Part shown: positions 6,437 to 24,592 of the stretch, one piece after another
Layout of the letters: the number at the start of each line of letters is the position of its first letter
Position numbering within the stretch: position 1 is the first letter of the stretch
Assembly: GCF_009914755.1 (NCBI RefSeq)
Contig: NC_060940.1
From: the human T2T-CHM13v2.0 reference genome, Homo sapiens
Reading direction: 5' to 3' (one strand)
Length of the DNA stretch: 64,000 nt
Made by a program: the position numbers and the translations under genes
Notes under the pieces: model-generated
Seen by the model: only the letters and a program-made list of their open reading frames with translations
Told to the model about the DNA's origin: nothing
The model's database searches: none

Positions 6437-6840
6437 TTTCTTTTCTTTTCTTTTCTTTTTTTAAGACAGGGTCTTACTCTGTCTCCTAGGCTGGAGTGCA
6501 GTGGCGCAATCTCGGTTCACTGCAAATTCCATCTCCCAGGTTCAGGTGATCCTCCCATCTCAGCCTCCTGAGTAGCTGGAATTATAGGCCCACACCACCA
6601 CTCCTGGCTGATTTTTGTATTTTTAGTACAGACAGGGTTTCACCATGTTGGCCAGGGTGGTCTCAAACTCCTGACCTCAGGTTATTCCAGGTTAAATGTT
6701 TATTACATGGATGGATGGAAAACGCAGGAGACCGAAGACGTTAGAGAGAAGACAACAACCCTGAGCTTCCACTGTGCAGAGTCACTGTTTCTCAGCTTCC
6801 CAAAGTGCTGGGATTACACGTGTGAGCCGCTGTGCGTGGC
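6437..6840 (-). mobile_element. AluS interrupted by a ~115-bp templated insertion (6681-6795)
   Basis: Alu to ...gacctcag, foreign sequence, then cttcccaaagtgctggg; TSD tgaggcccgtattttt/tgaggcccatgttttt brackets the whole. Confidence 0.9.
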
Positions 6841-7399
6841 TGAGGCCCATGTTTTTCTTTGCCTCCTTGATTCTCTTGGAAGCTGTTACGGTGCAGGAGG
6901 AGTCTGTGGACATCTTGAAAGGAGGCCCCTTGACTGCAGGCCTGTCTCTTGTGAGAACTTCACAGCAGGCATCTTCTGGGGGCTCCTCCTTCCTGCTCTC
7001 TGCCTCCTCTTTTCGCTCCTGGCTGGGGGTGAGAATTTGAAGCCACATGCGTGCTGCACTTGGTCACTCTGGCCAGTTGTAGCTCAAGACTGTTTGAGTG
7101 GCAAGATTCCAACCCTAGCCTGAAAATAGGATTATAGCTCCTGATGGCATCTTTGAGGAGGGCAGAAATGTTGACCTCCAGTCTCTTGCAAATGGGAGGG
7201 AGGCAGAGTAAGTGAGTGACACAAAGAGAGGGACACAAAGAGATTTTAAAAATAGCATCTATTTTATCCCAATTACAAAAATAATGTATGCATTTATTGC
7301 ACCCTTTCTTTGTGTGTGGCATTTGTCGCAATTACAATGAATAAATGAATGAGTCATTTGCTGAATAACTGCTTTCCCTCTCCTTTCCTCCCCTCCCTG

Positions 7400-7525
7400 C
7401 TCCATGGGAGATTCCGTAGCATGAGGTGTCAGGCCCTTCTTGTTCACTGCTGCTTCCCCAGCATCTAGCATGGTGCATACCAGCACAGTAAGCGCTCAAT
7501 ACATGGTTATTCCATGGATGGATGG
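7400..7525 (+). mobile_element. L2 3' end
   Basis: cttgttcactgctgcttccccagcatctagc...cacagtaagcgctcaatacat...ggatggatgga. Confidence 0.75.
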
Positions 7526-7584
7526 AAAACGTAGGAGACCGAGGACGTTAGAGACAAGACAACAACCCTGTGCTTCCACTGTGC

Positions 7585-7780
7585 AGTCACTGTTTCTCAG
7601 TCCAGGCTGCATGTTCGAATCACCTGGGGGAGTTTGTTAACCACTCCTGGGTCCACCCCAGACCTATCCAGTCTGAATTTTGAGTTGGGGTAGGGGCGGG
7701 GAGAAGGGGGTGTCTGACATCAGAGCCTTGCAAAACTCTCAGCTGACTGTAATCTGCAGACCTGTACAGAACCTCTGATG
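7585..7780. mobile_element. MER5A (hAT-Charlie) DNA transposon
   Basis: gtttctcag...gaatcacctgggggag...gggtccaccccagacct...tctgaatt. Confidence 0.7.
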
Positions 7781-7975
7781 CATGTCCTGCCAGTCATAGC
7801 TGCGTTTTGTTTTAACATTACATTATTGTTGTAAGAGTAAAACATTCATTTGCTGTGCAAATCAAGGAGTGGAGAAGGATGAGGCCTTAGCAAAATGAGG
7901 CCTTAGAAGAGAAATATTCCCCTGGGCTTCCATCCCCAGACACACGCATCAGAGGGAGCCATCTCTGCTGAAGTC

Positions 7976-8284
7976 CTTTTTTTTTTTTTTTTTTTTTTTT
8001 TTTTTGAGGCAGGGTCTTACTATGTTACCCAGGCTGGAGTGCAGTGGCATGATCTTGACTCACTGCAACCTCCACCTCCCAAGTTCAAGCGATTTTCCTG
8101 CCTTAGCCTCCTGAGTAGCTGGAATTACAGGCATGCACCACCATGCCCAGCTAATTTTTGTATTTTTAGTAGAGATGAGGTTTCTCCATGTTAAGCTGGT
8201 CTCAAACTCCTGACCTCAAGTGATCTGCCCGACACAGCCTAACCAAAGTGCTGAGATTACAGGCAAGAGCCACCATGCCCAGCC
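7976..8284 (-). mobile_element. AluS
   Basis: 30-nt poly-T followed by full antisense Alu. Confidence 0.95.
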
Positions 8285-21377: not shown

Positions 21378-22564
21378 GCCATTCTCTCTTTCTAGACTGT
21401 GTGGCCTCTCATCAGCTTCTCTCAGCACGTGATGTTATCCTCCCACTTTTCTCTGCAGATGGCAGTGAACTGGCTTTGCCCACTGCTCAGCCTCTTCTGT
21501 GCTTGGCATGGCATGGATACCCATGGCCGAAAGTGGCCACCACCCCTGTTTCCTGTGACACTTTTCATTTCAGGTGGCCTCCATGCTGCTCTGGCCTTTT
21601 CCCACTCATTCTGTGTAGAGTGACTGTGATTGGTTGTTGATCAGCCAATGGAGTGGGTCGTTCTGGGTCAGCTCTCACTTCCTGTTTAATTAATTGAATC
21701 TGGGGGTGGAGTCACATGGGGGAACAGGCTATCATGGGAAGTGAATCGAGGTCAGTTCTTAGACAATTGGCTGGATATGTCTTTTGACATCCTGTTCTTA
21801 AATTGAGGGGTCATCTGGTTGTCAATAGGGGCAGCCTAATTTTTGGAAATTCTGAGAGCTAAGCCTCCGCATCTTCAACTGTGAGGGATGGTAAAATTAG
21901 ACCTGGACGCTGCATGTTTTCACCTTCACTAGACCCACGTATGGGGTTGTCAAAGCTTTCGACTCTAAACTGTTCCTCAAACTTACCTCCCAGCTGGGTC
22001 AAAGAGAGAAAGGAAACACCGTCTGTGTTCCAGAGGCAAAAAAACTGGAATAAGGTATGTTTGGGACATTATGCCACAAAATAGGGCTGTTCATTGAAAT
22101 ATAATGAACAGCTGGGAAATAACTATCTCTCCTATGTGGGCTGTTAAACAGAGCATTTCCCTGAAAATTACCTTACAAAGAAATCTTCTCACTTTCCAAG
22201 CCAGACACACTGTGTTTTCTGGGTCTCCTCTGTGCAGGCAGGAGACTGGGGTGAAGTCCCCATGGAACTGTACTGAGTGGGTACTCTGGGGCTGCAGCGT
22301 TTCATAGCTGTTGAAAACCAAGGATCCTGGACCGTCCCTTTGGCGTTGGCTACCGTGTAGCAGAGCTCAATGTGAGATACACCCACCCCTAAATGACTAA
22401 CTTGCTGGTAATAAATTAGCTGAGCACACGTTTTGTAAGTGCAGCAGATAGTTTTTTGAGCACAAATTCGGTGCCCAGCATTGCTCTAGGCATCTGGGAT
22501 ACATTTAGGAGGAAAGCAGATAAAGATCTCTGTCCTCGAAGACATTTTTATTCCTAAAGCTGGC

Positions 22565-23160
22565 ATGATCCGCCTGCTACCTGCCTCTTCAGCTTGGAAT
22601 ACGTGTCTCCTCCCACTCTCTACTGCAGACCCCCTGGCTGCCATAACCCCACCGTCCTCCTTCCCACCACAGGGCCTTTGCACGTGGCCAGGTCACAGAG
22701 GTATTGAGCTGCACGGGACTGCCCCAAAGACTGGACACGTTACCCCAAACTGGGATCCTGTGTGCATCTGGTGCACACTTCTAGCTCTGAATCCCTGGGG
22801 TCCCAGACGAGGCTACCCAAAAGTCACAAGGGGGCCTGGAGCATCCCCTGCCTAAAGCCCCACTCCCGACAAGGCATCAGAGCCCTGCAGTCCTGTGCAG
22901 CTTAGTTGCTCTGCAATTGGCCTTTCCTCTTCCTGAAATGCTTCCCCTGCCCTGCTTTCCCTAATGACGCCTACTTATCTGAGCCTCCTCAGAGAAGTCT
23001 CCGCCACGGCTGCCCCTCATCTCTTCAGGTTGCTTTGTTATTGTGCATTCTCAGAATTGTGCTTCTTTCCTTCACAGTAGCACAAAGCTCAGTTTCTGTT
23101 TATGTATATTGTCATGATTCTTTGATTGCCATTGCCTCATATCAGACCCTAAACACTACA
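22565..23160 (+). mobile_element. L2 fragment interrupted by inverted insertion
   Basis: cagggcctttgcacgtgg | ...cctttcctcttcctgaaatgcttccc. Confidence 0.65.
22688..22884 (-). repeat. Inverted copy of 24397-24592
   Basis: Reverse complement matches ggctctgatgccttg...gctctgtgacctgg, ~90% by eye. Confidence 0.9.
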
Positions 23161-23299
23161 AGGTTTGGAGAGGTTAACTAAGTTGCCCAAGATCTAAAGG
23201 GTCACAGTCAGGATTTGAACCCACATCTATCTGGCCCCATGCTTTCTGTGCAGTCTAATATTGACTTGGAAATATAGAACTACATGTTTCACCTCTAGC

Positions 23300-23589
23300 T
23301 TTGTTTTTTGAGACAGGGTTTCTCTCGGTTGCCCAGGATGAGAACAGTGGCACAATCACAGCTCACTGCAACCGCAAACTCCTGGGCTCAAGTGATCCTC
23401 CCACCTCAGCCCCCCGAGTAGATGGAAACACAGATGCATGCCACCATGCCTGGCTAATTTTTTATTTTTTGTAGAGACAGAGTCTCACTATGTTGCCCAG
23501 TCTGGTCTCAAACTCCCGGATTCAAGTGATCGTCCCACCTCAGCCTCCCAAAGGTCTTGGATTACAGGGCTGAGCCACTGCACCCAGCC
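23300..23589 (-). mobile_element. AluJ
   Basis: ctcctgggctcaagtgatcctccc (J-type); TSD cacctctagcttt/cacctctaacttt. Confidence 0.9.
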
Positions 23590-24396
23590 CACCTCTAACT
23601 TTGTACATCTCCCCTTCTAATTTACTGAAGCTATGCAGAGCTTTCTACATGCATTTAGTGGTGTAAAGATAATAATAATAGCACCTATCATTTGCTGAGA
23701 TCTATTTGCAAGGTACTGGGGTAAGTGCCCTGCATGCATTGACCACTTGGATCTGAGAAAGCAGGAACTATGTAATTCACCTCATTGTGCAAATAAGAAA
23801 GGGTTGGGCAGGGGAGGTGGCATGCCCAAAGTCTCTCTCACAGGCAGGATTTGAACCCGATCCTTGTGAATTTCCAGCCTGTGGCATTGCACCTTCAATT
23901 CTGTCTCCCTCCTGACACATTCCACCTTGAAGAAAAATGCAAATGAGGTAACAAGGGGGCAAGTCTGAGGCTCTGGGTCCTGCTTACATAAACAGCCCCT
24001 GAGATTTATGAAGGGTTCCAGGAAGAAGAGTGATCGATTGGCTGCAGGCTTATTACTCATGGATTTCTTTGGCCTGGGCACATGCAGACCACAGGGAATT
24101 TGAGCCAGTGTGGAGGGCCCCTTCTAATGGTTCTCTCATGCTCGAACCCTGCTGCGGTACAACCAGGGGAGCTGCGTGTGGGGCGGGCCTCTCTGGCATC
24201 AAAAGGCGTTGGCGCTGCTAGGAGAGGTTGAGCACATCCCTTTCTTTCTTTGTTCTCTGGAGTGTACTGTTTTGCTTGGATTTATGCAAATGGCTCCACA
24301 GGGGGATCTCAGTGCCAAGGAAAGGAGAAAGGATTGTTCTCTGAGGTCAGAGTCAGGGAGGAAACTTGCCACCACCACCGCTCCGTGCTGGAATTC

Positions 24397-24592
24397 GGCT
24401 CTGATGCCTTGCTGGGAGTGGGACTTTGGGCAGGAGTTGCTGCAGGCCCCCTTGTGACTTTGGGTAGCCTCGTCTGGGACCGCAGGGATTCAGAGCTAGA
24501 AGTGTGCACCAGATGCACACAGGAGCCCAGTTTGGGGTAACATGTCCAGGCTTTGGGGCAGTCCTGTGCAGCTCAATAGCTCTGTGACCTGG
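24397..24592 (+). repeat. Donor of inverted duplication; runs into a MIR (to ~24750)
   Basis: Continues as tgtgacctgggcaag...gagcctcagtgttctcatctggaaaatgggg. Confidence 0.85.

What the first reader, a model, noticed from the sequence alone, without database searches (positions are those of the whole stretch)
6681..24592. Hotspot of four short, locally templated insertions in 18 kb
Seen: four separate 95-220 bp segments each have a second copy 0.8-1.9 kb away: 7505-7600 -> 6698-6795, 15250-15436 -> 13331-13517, 18648-18867 -> 20199-20413, and 24397-24592 -> 22688-22884 (inverted). Direction is readable because the donor continues into its host repeat, while the copy ends abruptly (three of the four interrupt an unrelated repeat). 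None has a poly-A tail or TSD, so these are not retrotranspositions. I saw none in the other ~40 kb. Inference: these are fossil scars of template-switch repair (polymerase-theta-mediated end joining or MMBIR/FoSTeS) at a germline break-prone segment of a very long intron. This is plausible for a megabase neuronal gene with transcription-replication stress.
Basis: partly seen in the sequence, partly recalled or inferred. Interest (0 to 1): 0.8.

Follow-up and report, generated by a model that had tools for sequence, protein, structure and literature searches.

The report
Cluster of local DNA-repair duplications
An intron of the human RBFOX1 gene holds six short pieces of DNA that were copied from 1-2 kb away when ancient chromosome breaks were repaired; this kind of scar is already known, but it is unusually dense here.

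Summary
All four pairs exist at the stated coordinates. P1 is 103 nt at 91%, P2 188 nt at 94.7%, P3 221 nt at 86%, and P4 200 nt at 92.5% and inverted. P1, P3 and P4 each occur at exactly two places in the whole genome, the site itself and its local partner. P2 is built from common repeats, but its local partner is clearly its best match. None has a poly-A tail, a target-site duplication or homology in the flanks.

P1 replaces 9-14 nt of an Alu. P4 is chimeric, with an inverted copy followed by a 27-nt direct copy of the same donor, which marks a template switch.

These match the "repair-mediated duplications" of Pace et al. 2009 (PMC2671141), so the kind is already known.

Two more genome-unique pairs lie at 33.5/35.4 kb and 54.0/55.0 kb.

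The clustering looks real but rests on a small null. The window has 6 events in 64 kb; 280 kb of random genome has 0-1. The published density is 0.62 per Mb.

The cause is untested. It could be replication stress, meiotic breaks or chance. Canonical polymerase-theta joining fits the sizes and distances poorly.

The parts
6690..6795 (+). P1 acceptor. It has 3 nt of filler (6690-6692) plus a 103-nt copy of 7500-7600, inserted in an Alu.
   Evidence: In one search, 81 Alu copies in the sequence pool bridge the two flanks with only 9-14 nt missing. The segment occurs at 2 of 2 places in the genome.
6422..6840 (-). Host Alu of P1, split into 6422-6689 and 6796-6840.
   Evidence: Alignment with five other Alus of the window. 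The hub annotation masks 6422-6687.
7500..7600 (+). P1 donor.
   Evidence: 91.3% identity to the copy; 7 mismatches in 101 aligned positions.
13331..13517 (+). P2 acceptor. It is a copy of about 78 nt of an Alu 5' end plus about 107 nt of the adjacent LTR, and both ends are abrupt.
   Evidence: The best genomic match is the local donor at 94.7%; the 12 other fetched loci with the same junction reach 77-88.7%.
15250..15436 (+). P2 donor. It lies inside a solo LTR (about 14958-15646) that carries an Alu flanked by a 10-nt target-site duplication.
   Evidence: sequence read. In one search, 120 Alu hits run across the donor arm's left boundary. The LTR family name (THE1/MaLR) is recalled, not tested.
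18648..18867 (+). P3 donor. This role is inferred: the left end appears to continue into a MIR.
   Evidence: The MIR was recognised by eye; the only support is a 21-nt core match.
20199..20413 (+). P3 acceptor (inferred).
   Evidence: 26 mismatches in 215 aligned positions, with 3 gap events.
22685..22884 (-). P4 acceptor, segment 1: an inverted copy of 24397-24595.
   Evidence: 14 mismatches in 199 aligned positions.
22887..22913 (+). P4 acceptor, segment 2: a direct copy of donor 24558-24584, starting 2 nt after segment 1. It is also the reverse complement of 22696-22722. This marks a template switch or fold-back.
   Evidence: 27 nt, 88.9%, E 3.6e-4. (16 of 16 exact, E 2e-5).
24397..24595 (+). 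P4 donor. It overlaps the RefSeq enhancer features 23812-24534 and 24535-25256.
   Evidence: plus the hub annotation.
33471..33516 (.). P6, first arm: 46 nt, one mismatch, partner inverted. Direction not determined.
35441..35486 (.). P6, second arm.
54023..54291 (.). P5, first arm: 271 aligned nt, 85%, partner inverted. Direction not determined.
54987..55248 (.). P5, second arm.

Best explanation
The four pairs, and two more in the window, are fossil repair-mediated duplications. The proposed sequence of events is as follows. A double-strand break arose in the primate germline. One resected 3' end paired by a few bases with nearby DNA 0.8-2.0 kb away, on either strand. DNA synthesis copied 46-271 nt. 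The new strand was released, and in P4 it switched template or folded back once for a further 27 nt. It was then joined to the other broken end, with small losses and filler bases.

Shown here: the copies are unique and local, both ends are abrupt, there is no poly-A tail or target-site duplication, P1 replaces 9-14 nt of an Alu, and P4 is a two-piece insert.

Inferred: the break itself, strand invasion and the enzymes involved.

The events fall into at least three divergence classes, about 2%, 6.4-7.0% and 12%. They are therefore most likely separate events spread over tens of millions of years, although the spread is only borderline significant.

Their density is 6 per 64 kb, against 0-1 per 280 kb of random genome and a published 0.62 per Mb. 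I take this as a regionally raised rate of germline breaks or of this repair outcome (my odds about 0.6-0.65), of unknown cause.
For: Uniqueness: each returned 2 of 2 scored candidates, the site itself plus the local partner. For P2, the local partner is 94.7% identical over 188 nt, against 76.9-88.7% for 12 of 12 fetched loci that share the junction type.

No collinear flank similarity in 6 of 6 pairs.

No poly-A and no abutting repeat at 8 of 8 arm sites examined.

P1: 81 Alu copies bridge the flanks with a 9-14 nt gap. One search shows a 3-nt filler and a possible 5-nt CTCAG microhomology.

P4: the second segment is 16 of 16 exact and 24 of 27 overall, and starts 2 nt beyond the first.

Published class, from PMC2671141 (Results and section 14 read): 824 proximal duplications in human; mean 162 bp, median 147 bp; distance peak about 1,200 bp; none of 39 inspected had a poly-A tail; junctions carry microhomology, deletion or filler; 20 chimeric acceptors.

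Clustering with strict criteria: 6 of 7 window candidates are unique, against 0 of 11 candidates in 14 random 20-kb blocks. With loose criteria there were 2 random candidates. One proved genome-unique and one is an LTR family. Binomial P is 4e-5 to 7e-4. At 0.62 per Mb, Poisson P(>=6 in 64 kb) is 5e-12.
Against: The null sample is small. It covers 280 kb, of which 183 kb is searchable, and one block is pure satellite. Its 95% upper bound (about 11-20 per Mb) would still allow roughly 4-100 such 64-kb windows genome-wide by chance.

The window was picked because it looked striking.

The random blocks are mostly AT-richer: 11 of 14 have GC below 0.41, against 0.457 for the window.

No outgroup genome was available, so no empty site was seen. 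Exact junctions are reconstructed for P1 only.

Heterogeneity of divergence is not significant among the four pairs (chi-square p=0.14) and is borderline among the six (p=0.056). P1, P2 and P4 are indistinguishable in age (p=0.97).

In one search the local partner of P2 was not among the 40 scored hits. In one search another locus scored slightly higher over the 71-nt junction.

Pace et al. saw no tendency of such duplications to cluster.
Confidence: 0.8

Rival explanations
1. The events are ordinary repair-mediated duplications, but their closeness is chance plus ascertainment. There is no local hotspot.
For: The window was chosen after the fact. My null rests on 0-1 events in 280 kb. At its upper 95% bound, 4-100 windows with 6 or more events are expected genome-wide. 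Pace et al. reported no clustering among 824 events (PMC2671141, section 15 passage).
Against: The conditional binomial P is 4e-5 to 7e-4, even after correcting for the searchable fraction. At the point estimate of 3.6 per Mb, only 0.008 such windows are expected genome-wide. At the published 0.62 per Mb, the expectation is 2.5e-7.
Confidence: 0.33
2. P1, P2 and P4 arose together in one complex event with several breaks or several template switches (MMBIR- or chromoanasynthesis-like). On this reading they are not independent hits.
For: Their divergences are indistinguishable: 6.9%, 6.4% and 7.0%, chi-square p=0.97. P4 itself shows a template switch.
Against: The three acceptors are 6-9 kb apart, and each copies a donor within 2 kb of itself. 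I saw no rearrangement of the sequence between them in the self-comparison. Most published events date to the same era: 289 catarrhine-specific and 513 primate-specific of 1,136 (PMC2671141), so equal ages are expected anyway. P3, P5 and P6 differ in divergence.
Confidence: 0.1
3. The inserts were copied from RNA. Fragments of RBFOX1 pre-mRNA intron were reverse-transcribed and captured at breaks, giving templated insertions without a poly-A tail.
For: All donors and acceptors lie in one transcription unit (hub annotation). There is no poly-A tail or target-site duplication.
Against: RBFOX1 expression is reported as restricted to heart, muscle and brain (PMC3689739, passage), not the germline. 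All six donors lie 0.8-2.0 kb from their acceptors, a narrow range that points to physical proximity of DNA rather than a 2.5-Mb transcript. The published proximal class is attributed to DNA-templated repair (PMC2671141). This rival is not excluded by any test made here.
Confidence: 0.04
4. The pairs are independent copies of unrecognised interspersed repeats.
For: The non-Alu half of P2 belongs to a family with at least 40 genomic matches. The Alu/LTR junction recurs at other loci.
Against: P1, P3, P4, P5 and P6 occur at exactly two places in 3.1 Gb. P2's local partner is 6-18 percentage points closer than 12 of 12 other loci.
Confidence: 0.02

Closest known systems
[quoted passage not shown]
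   Same: The insert is found at only one other genomic place. The donor is under 5 kb away (here 807-1970 bp; the published peak is about 1,200 bp). Sizes here are 46-271 nt (published median 147 bp). There is no poly-A tail. P1 shows deletion, filler and microhomology. P4 is a chimeric acceptor. Both orientations occur. The events are of primate age.
   Different: The density is far higher: six in 64 kb, where the paper's density predicts about 0.04 and the paper reports no clustering. P6 is below their 50-bp cutoff. P2's insert is itself made of repeats and would probably have been filtered out by their pipeline.
'Doublets', short paired duplications about 1 kb apart (Thomas et al. 2004, PNAS). 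I did not read this paper; it is known to me only through its citation in PMC2671141 section 14 and from recall.
   Same: Short local non-tandem duplicates with a preferred spacing near 1 kb, interpreted as insertions of a copy.
   Different: Doublets were defined as 25-100 bp exact matches. Five of the six here are longer and 5-14% diverged.
Polymerase-theta-mediated end joining with templated insertions (as characterised at fragile sites, PMC11541566)
   Same: Break repair with copying from a nearby template. Both fold-back and direct template classes occur. Microhomology is used at junctions.
   Different: The published footprint is inserts of 1-20 bp from templates within about 20 bp of the break. 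Here the inserts are 46-271 nt and the templates lie 0.8-2.0 kb away.
MMBIR/FoSTeS template switching
   Same: Template switching at short homology. P4 has two template segments in opposite orientation.
   Different: No accompanying copy-number change or larger rearrangement is seen. Each event is a simple insertion into otherwise collinear sequence.
Insertion structural variants at meiotic break hotspots (Hinch et al. 2023, PMC7615360)
   Same: That paper reports an excess of insertions, template switching, sizes within the roughly 2-kb resection range, and a stronger effect near telomeres. This window lies 5.5 Mb from the 16p end.
   Different: That work concerns present-day polymorphisms at PRDM9 hotspots. 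Here the events are fixed and millions of years old, and no hotspot map was available to me.

Membership tests
Repair-mediated duplication (Pace et al. 2009) | The inserted sequence is found at only one other place in the genome. | tested here: met
   2 of 2 places for P1, P3, P4, P5 and P6. P2 is made of repeats; its local partner is the best match at 94.7%, against at most 88.7% for 12 other loci.
Repair-mediated duplication (Pace et al. 2009) | The donor is on the same chromosome within 5 kb and is not tandem (more than 50 bp away). | tested here: met
   Start-to-start distances are 807, 1919, 1551, 1712, 1970 and 964 bp.
Repair-mediated duplication (Pace et al. 2009) | The acceptor interrupts a transposable element whose two parts are contiguous in the family consensus (within about 30 bp). 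| tested here: inconclusive
   Met for P1: 81 Alu copies bridge the flanks with a 9-14 nt gap. For P2, P3 and P4 the old host repeats gave no hits in my 344-kb pool. They were recognised by eye only.
Repair-mediated duplication (Pace et al. 2009) | No poly-A or poly-T tail. The junctions carry microhomology, deletion or filler and no long target-site duplication. | tested here: met
   A and T runs are at most 4, and no repeat abuts any junction. P1 has a deletion, a 3-nt filler and a possible 5-nt microhomology. P4 is a chimera of two segments.
Repair-mediated duplication (Pace et al. 2009) | An empty orthologous site exists in an outgroup species. | not testable with these tools
Polymerase-theta templated insertion (TMEJ footprint) | A short insert (about 1-20 bp, rarely more) copied from within tens of bp of the break. 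| tested here: not met
   The inserts are 46-271 nt and the templates are 807-1970 bp away. The reference footprint comes from PMC11541566 passages.
L1-mediated retrocopy / class-1 templated sequence insertion | A poly-A tail and a target-site duplication. | tested here: not met
Interspersed repeat family | Many dispersed copies in the genome. | tested here: not met
   As a positive control of the method, the 71% pair at 41862-42380 / 43182-43750 gave 6,104 first-look candidates, and a loose null candidate proved to be an LTR family.
Gene-conversion patch within an older, larger duplication | Weaker collinear homology continues beyond the high-identity patch. | tested here: not met
   no collinear hit in the 500-nt flanks of any of the 6 pairs at word size 7, E<=1.

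The most novel reading that the evidence does not exclude
A stretch of some 20-60 kb in the first large intron region of RBFOX1 has been a stable germline break-and-repair hotspot for tens of millions of years. It has left a dated series of templated-insertion scars at about 12%, 7% and 2% divergence. That time span is longer than individual PRDM9 hotspots are thought to last (recalled knowledge, not tested here). It would therefore point to a sequence- or gene-architecture-driven fragility, with large-gene replication stress or a persistent subtelomeric recombination domain as candidate causes, that can be read directly from a single genome.
Probability: 0.3. Interest if true: 0.65.

Novelty: new member of a known kind. 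Interest (0 to 1): 0.4.

Why it matters
Each event taken alone is an ordinary example of a repair scar described in 2009. What is worth a further look is the density: six in 64 kb, where about 0.04-0.2 are expected.

If a genome-wide count confirms it, such clusters would be a cheap way, from one assembly alone, to map places where the germline has broken repeatedly over evolutionary time. They could also show whether long fragile neuronal genes such as RBFOX1, a deletion-prone locus in colon cancer and a break-cluster gene in mouse neural progenitors, are fragile in the germline too.

Two events also duplicate or abut annotated enhancer elements. This illustrates how the mechanism can copy regulatory DNA locally.

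Tried and rejected
(1) A larger null sample. I planned 60 random 20-kb blocks.

(2) Pace et al. Table S1.

(3) Earlier findings of this scan.

(4) Tool verification of the MIR and L2 host repeats of P3 and P4. Sensitive blastn gave only one 21-nt core match and no pool hits. The names remain recalled.

(5) A 16-mer scan for shorter local exact pairs, in the style of 'doublets'. The output was dominated by tandem arrays, Alu target-site duplications and repeat variants, so I did not use it for any count.

(6) The PRDM9-type 13-mer. There were 9 matches against 2.27 expected, but I read 4 of the 9 as lying in Alu sequence, which the shuffles do not model. It gives no evidence either way.

(7) The 71% pairs at 41862-42380 / 43182-43750, considered as a possible seventh event. 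I rejected this because they belong to a high-copy family.

(8) A conversion patch within an older duplication. Rejected.

(9) Target-site duplications. The 7-nt flank words of P2 and P4 do not abut the junctions.

(10) The exact 10-mer shared by the Alu end left of P1 (6680-6689) and the donor interior (7505-7514). I could not decide whether it is residual Alu sequence, a first abortive copy or a pairing site.

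
Full report
OBSERVATION. A repeat search of 6000-25500, pairwise alignments and a word-11 self-blastn of the whole window confirm all four pairs:

| Pair | Arm 1 | Arm 2 | Orientation | Length | Identity | Spacing |
|---|---|---|---|---|---|---|
| P1 | 6693-6795 | 7500-7600 | direct | 103 nt | 91.3% | 807 bp |
| P2 | 13331-13517 | 15250-15436 | direct | 188 nt | 94.7% | 1919 bp |
| P3 | 18648-18867 | 20199-20413 | direct | 221 nt | 86.4% | 1551 bp |
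| P4 | 22685-22884 | 24595-24397 | inverted | 200 nt | 92.5% | 1712 bp |

In every alignment the similarity stops abruptly at both ends. A word-7 comparison of 500-nt flanks found no collinear similarity in any of the six pairs examined. These are therefore not conversion patches inside older, larger duplications.

NOT A REPEAT FAMILY. The window's own assembly (3.1 Gb; the window is C16:5456001-5520000) was searched with each copy. P1, P3 and P4 each gave 2 first-look candidates, both scored: the query itself and its local partner.

P2 is different. Its non-Alu half belongs to an interspersed family: 87 candidates, 40 scored, best non-self match 92%. The local partner was not even among the 40 rows.

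A 71-nt probe across P2's Alu/LTR junction found the local partner at 93%. It also found 17 other places spanning at least 61 of the 71 bases, one of which scored slightly higher. The junction is therefore not diagnostic on its own.

I fetched 12 of those loci. Over the whole 187 nt they reach 76.9-88.7% identity, and only 5 of the 12 align over 185 nt or more. The local donor reaches 94.7%.

The donor context explains this. A solo LTR at about 14958-15646 carries an Alu flanked by a 10-nt target-site duplication. The other loci are best read as independent Alu insertions at the same preferred LTR target.

DIRECTION AND JUNCTIONS. P1's copy sits inside an Alu. Aligned with five other Alus of the window, the Alu runs to about 6689 and resumes at 6796. 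In a 344-kb pool, 81 Alu copies bridge the two flanks with only 9-14 nt missing. The junctions show a 3-nt filler (6690-6692) and a possible 5-nt microhomology (CTCAG) on the right. This combination of deletion, filler and microhomology is the commonest class in Table 1 of Pace et al.

P2's donor arm continues into its Alu: 120 Alu hits cross the arm boundary. The copy starts in mid-Alu.

For P3 and P4, the donors appear to continue into MIR elements. That is my reading by eye, and the only tool support is one 21-nt core match.

P4's insert is chimeric. Two bases after the inverted copy ends at 22884, positions 22887-22913 repeat donor 24558-24584 in direct orientation. The match is 16 of 16 exact and 24 of 27 overall. 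This stretch is also the reverse complement of 22696-22722 within the insert. It is a template switch to the other strand or a fold-back on the nascent strand.

No insert end has an A or T run longer than 4, and no direct repeat abuts any junction.

MORE EVENTS IN THE WINDOW. Among 363 non-self hits of the self-comparison, two further low-copy local pairs stand out:
- P5: 54023-54291 vs 55248-54987, 271 nt, 85%, inverted, 964 bp apart.
- P6: 33471-33516 vs 35486-35441, 46 nt, 98%, inverted, 1970 bp apart.

Both have abrupt ends and occur at exactly two places in the genome.

A 71% pair at 41862-42380 / 43182-43750 is a high-copy family with 6,104 first-look candidates. It was not counted.

The window thus holds six events, three direct and three inverted, all 0.8-2.0 kb from their partners.

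AGES. Mismatch fractions:

| Pair | Mismatches / aligned | Fraction |
|---|---|---|
| P1 | 7/101 | 6.9% |
| P2 | 12/187 | 6.4% |
| P4 | 14/199 | 7.0% |
| P3 | 26/215 | 12.1% |
| P5 | 31/260 | 11.9% |
| P6 | 1/46 | 2.2% |

With the pairwise rate used by Pace et al. (2.2e-9 per year), these correspond to roughly 30-34, 60 and 10 million years. The confidence intervals are wide.

P1, P2 and P4 are indistinguishable in age (p=0.97). Heterogeneity is not significant among the four pairs (p=0.14) and is borderline among the six (p=0.056). Several events over a long time is the likelier reading. A joint origin of P1, P2 and P4 is not excluded.

KNOWN CLASS. Pace, Sen, Batzer and Feschotte 2009 (PMC2671141; I read the abstract, all of Results, section 14 and some found passages) describe exactly this kind of event. 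They report 824 human 'repair-mediated duplications' with these properties:
- The donor lies within 5 kb, with a distance peak near 1,200 bp.
- Mean size is 162 bp and median 147 bp.
- None of 39 inspected had a poly-A tail.
- Junctions carry microhomology, deletion or filler.
- Twenty acceptors are chimeric.
- Most events are catarrhine- or primate-specific.

They attribute the events to synthesis-dependent strand annealing. They link them to the 'doublets' of Thomas et al. 2004, a paper I did not read.

The polymerase-theta footprint at fragile sites is different: inserts of 1-20 bp from templates within about 20 bp (PMC11541566, passages). The specific enzyme named fits poorly.

IS IT A HOTSPOT? 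Pace et al. give 0.62 events per Mb of repeat DNA and saw no clustering. That predicts about 0.04 events per 64 kb.

For my own null I drew 60 random 20-kb blocks.

The same pipeline was applied to the window and the blocks:
- Strict criteria (at least 85% identity, 45-400 nt, 300-3000 bp apart, no other hit in the pool): 6 of 7 window candidates were unique, against 0 of 11 random candidates.
- Loose criteria (at least 80% identity, 40-600 nt, 150-5000 bp apart): 2 random candidates. One is truly genome-unique. The other is an LTR family.

After allowing for the searchable fraction (53 kb against 183 kb; one chrY block is all satellite), the conditional binomial P is 1.3e-4 (strict) or 7.3e-4 (loose).

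Poisson expectations for windows with 6 or more events genome-wide:

| Assumed rate | Expected windows |
|---|---|
| 0.62 per Mb (published) | 2.5e-7 |
| 3.6 per Mb (my point estimate) | 0.008 |
| 10.7-20 per Mb (my upper bounds) | 4-100 |

There are three caveats. The null is small. Most random blocks are AT-richer than the window. The window was selected because it looked odd.

I put about 0.6-0.65 on a genuinely raised local rate. The enrichment covers the whole window and is not limited to 18 kb.

CAUSE. The cause was not tested.

RBFOX1/A2BP1 is a deletion-prone, fragile-site-like locus in colon cancer. In that study, however, aphidicolin induced no deletion there in 8 clones, and expression was brain, heart and muscle only (PMC3689739, passages). 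Rbfox1 is a recurrent break-cluster gene in mouse neural progenitors (bioRxiv 10.1101/2019.12.30.891168, two passages). All of this evidence is somatic.

An equally good candidate is meiotic break repair. It yields a strong excess of insertions with template switching, within the roughly 2-kb resection range and especially near telomeres (PMC7615360, passages). The window lies 5.5 Mb from the 16p end, and all six donor distances are under 2 kb.

A PRDM9-type 13-mer is over-represented, with 9 matches against 2.27 expected. This is largely through Alu copies, so it decides nothing.

VERDICT. The kind is already known, and these are new (or perhaps already listed) members of it. The clustering is the only unusual aspect and needs a genome-wide count.

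Noticed in passing
window 15320-15335 and 13403-13412; loci L001-L012: The same junction, an Alu 5' end abutting one particular site of a THE1-like LTR (family name recalled), recurs at many unrelated genomic loci. Seventeen other places span at least 61 of 71 junction bases, and 12 were fetched. This suggests a preferred Alu integration site inside this LTR family.
   Followed up: partly
window 6680-6689 and 7505-7514: An exact 10-mer is shared between the Alu end just left of the P1 insert and the interior of the P1 donor. It could be residual Alu sequence, a first abortive copy or a pairing site. It remains unresolved.
   Followed up: partly
window 24397-24595 and 20199-20413: The P4 donor overlaps the RefSeq enhancer features 23812-24534 and 24535-25256, so part of an annotated enhancer was duplicated in inverted form 1.7 kb upstream. 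The P3 copy ends 23 bp before enhancer 20436-21004.
   Followed up: no
window 41862-42380 and 43182-43750: Two copies, about 71% alike, of a high-copy interspersed repeat with an internal inverted arrangement. Other genomic copies match query positions 1-285 and 289-519 on opposite strands, and there were 6,104 first-look candidates.
   Followed up: yes
window 47210-47744 and 61748-62287: Clusters of short direct exact matches 120-450 bp apart in the 16-mer scan, suggesting diverged tandem arrays.
   Followed up: no
window 7698-17260: Six of the nine matches to the degenerate PRDM9-type 13-mer fall between 7.7 and 17.3 kb. Two of them lie inside the Alu part of the two P2 arms.
   Followed up: partly
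L017 5960-6040 and 7083-7163 (G000:C6:43942960-43944163): A genome-unique inverted local pair (81 nt, 82%, 1.1 kb apart) in a random control block. It is an older event of the same kind, and the only one in 280 kb.
   Followed up: yes
G000:C1:172530983-172532690: Two hits to the LTR part of P2 lie 1.6 kb apart in the same orientation on C1, as expected for the two LTRs of a short full-length element.
   Followed up: no
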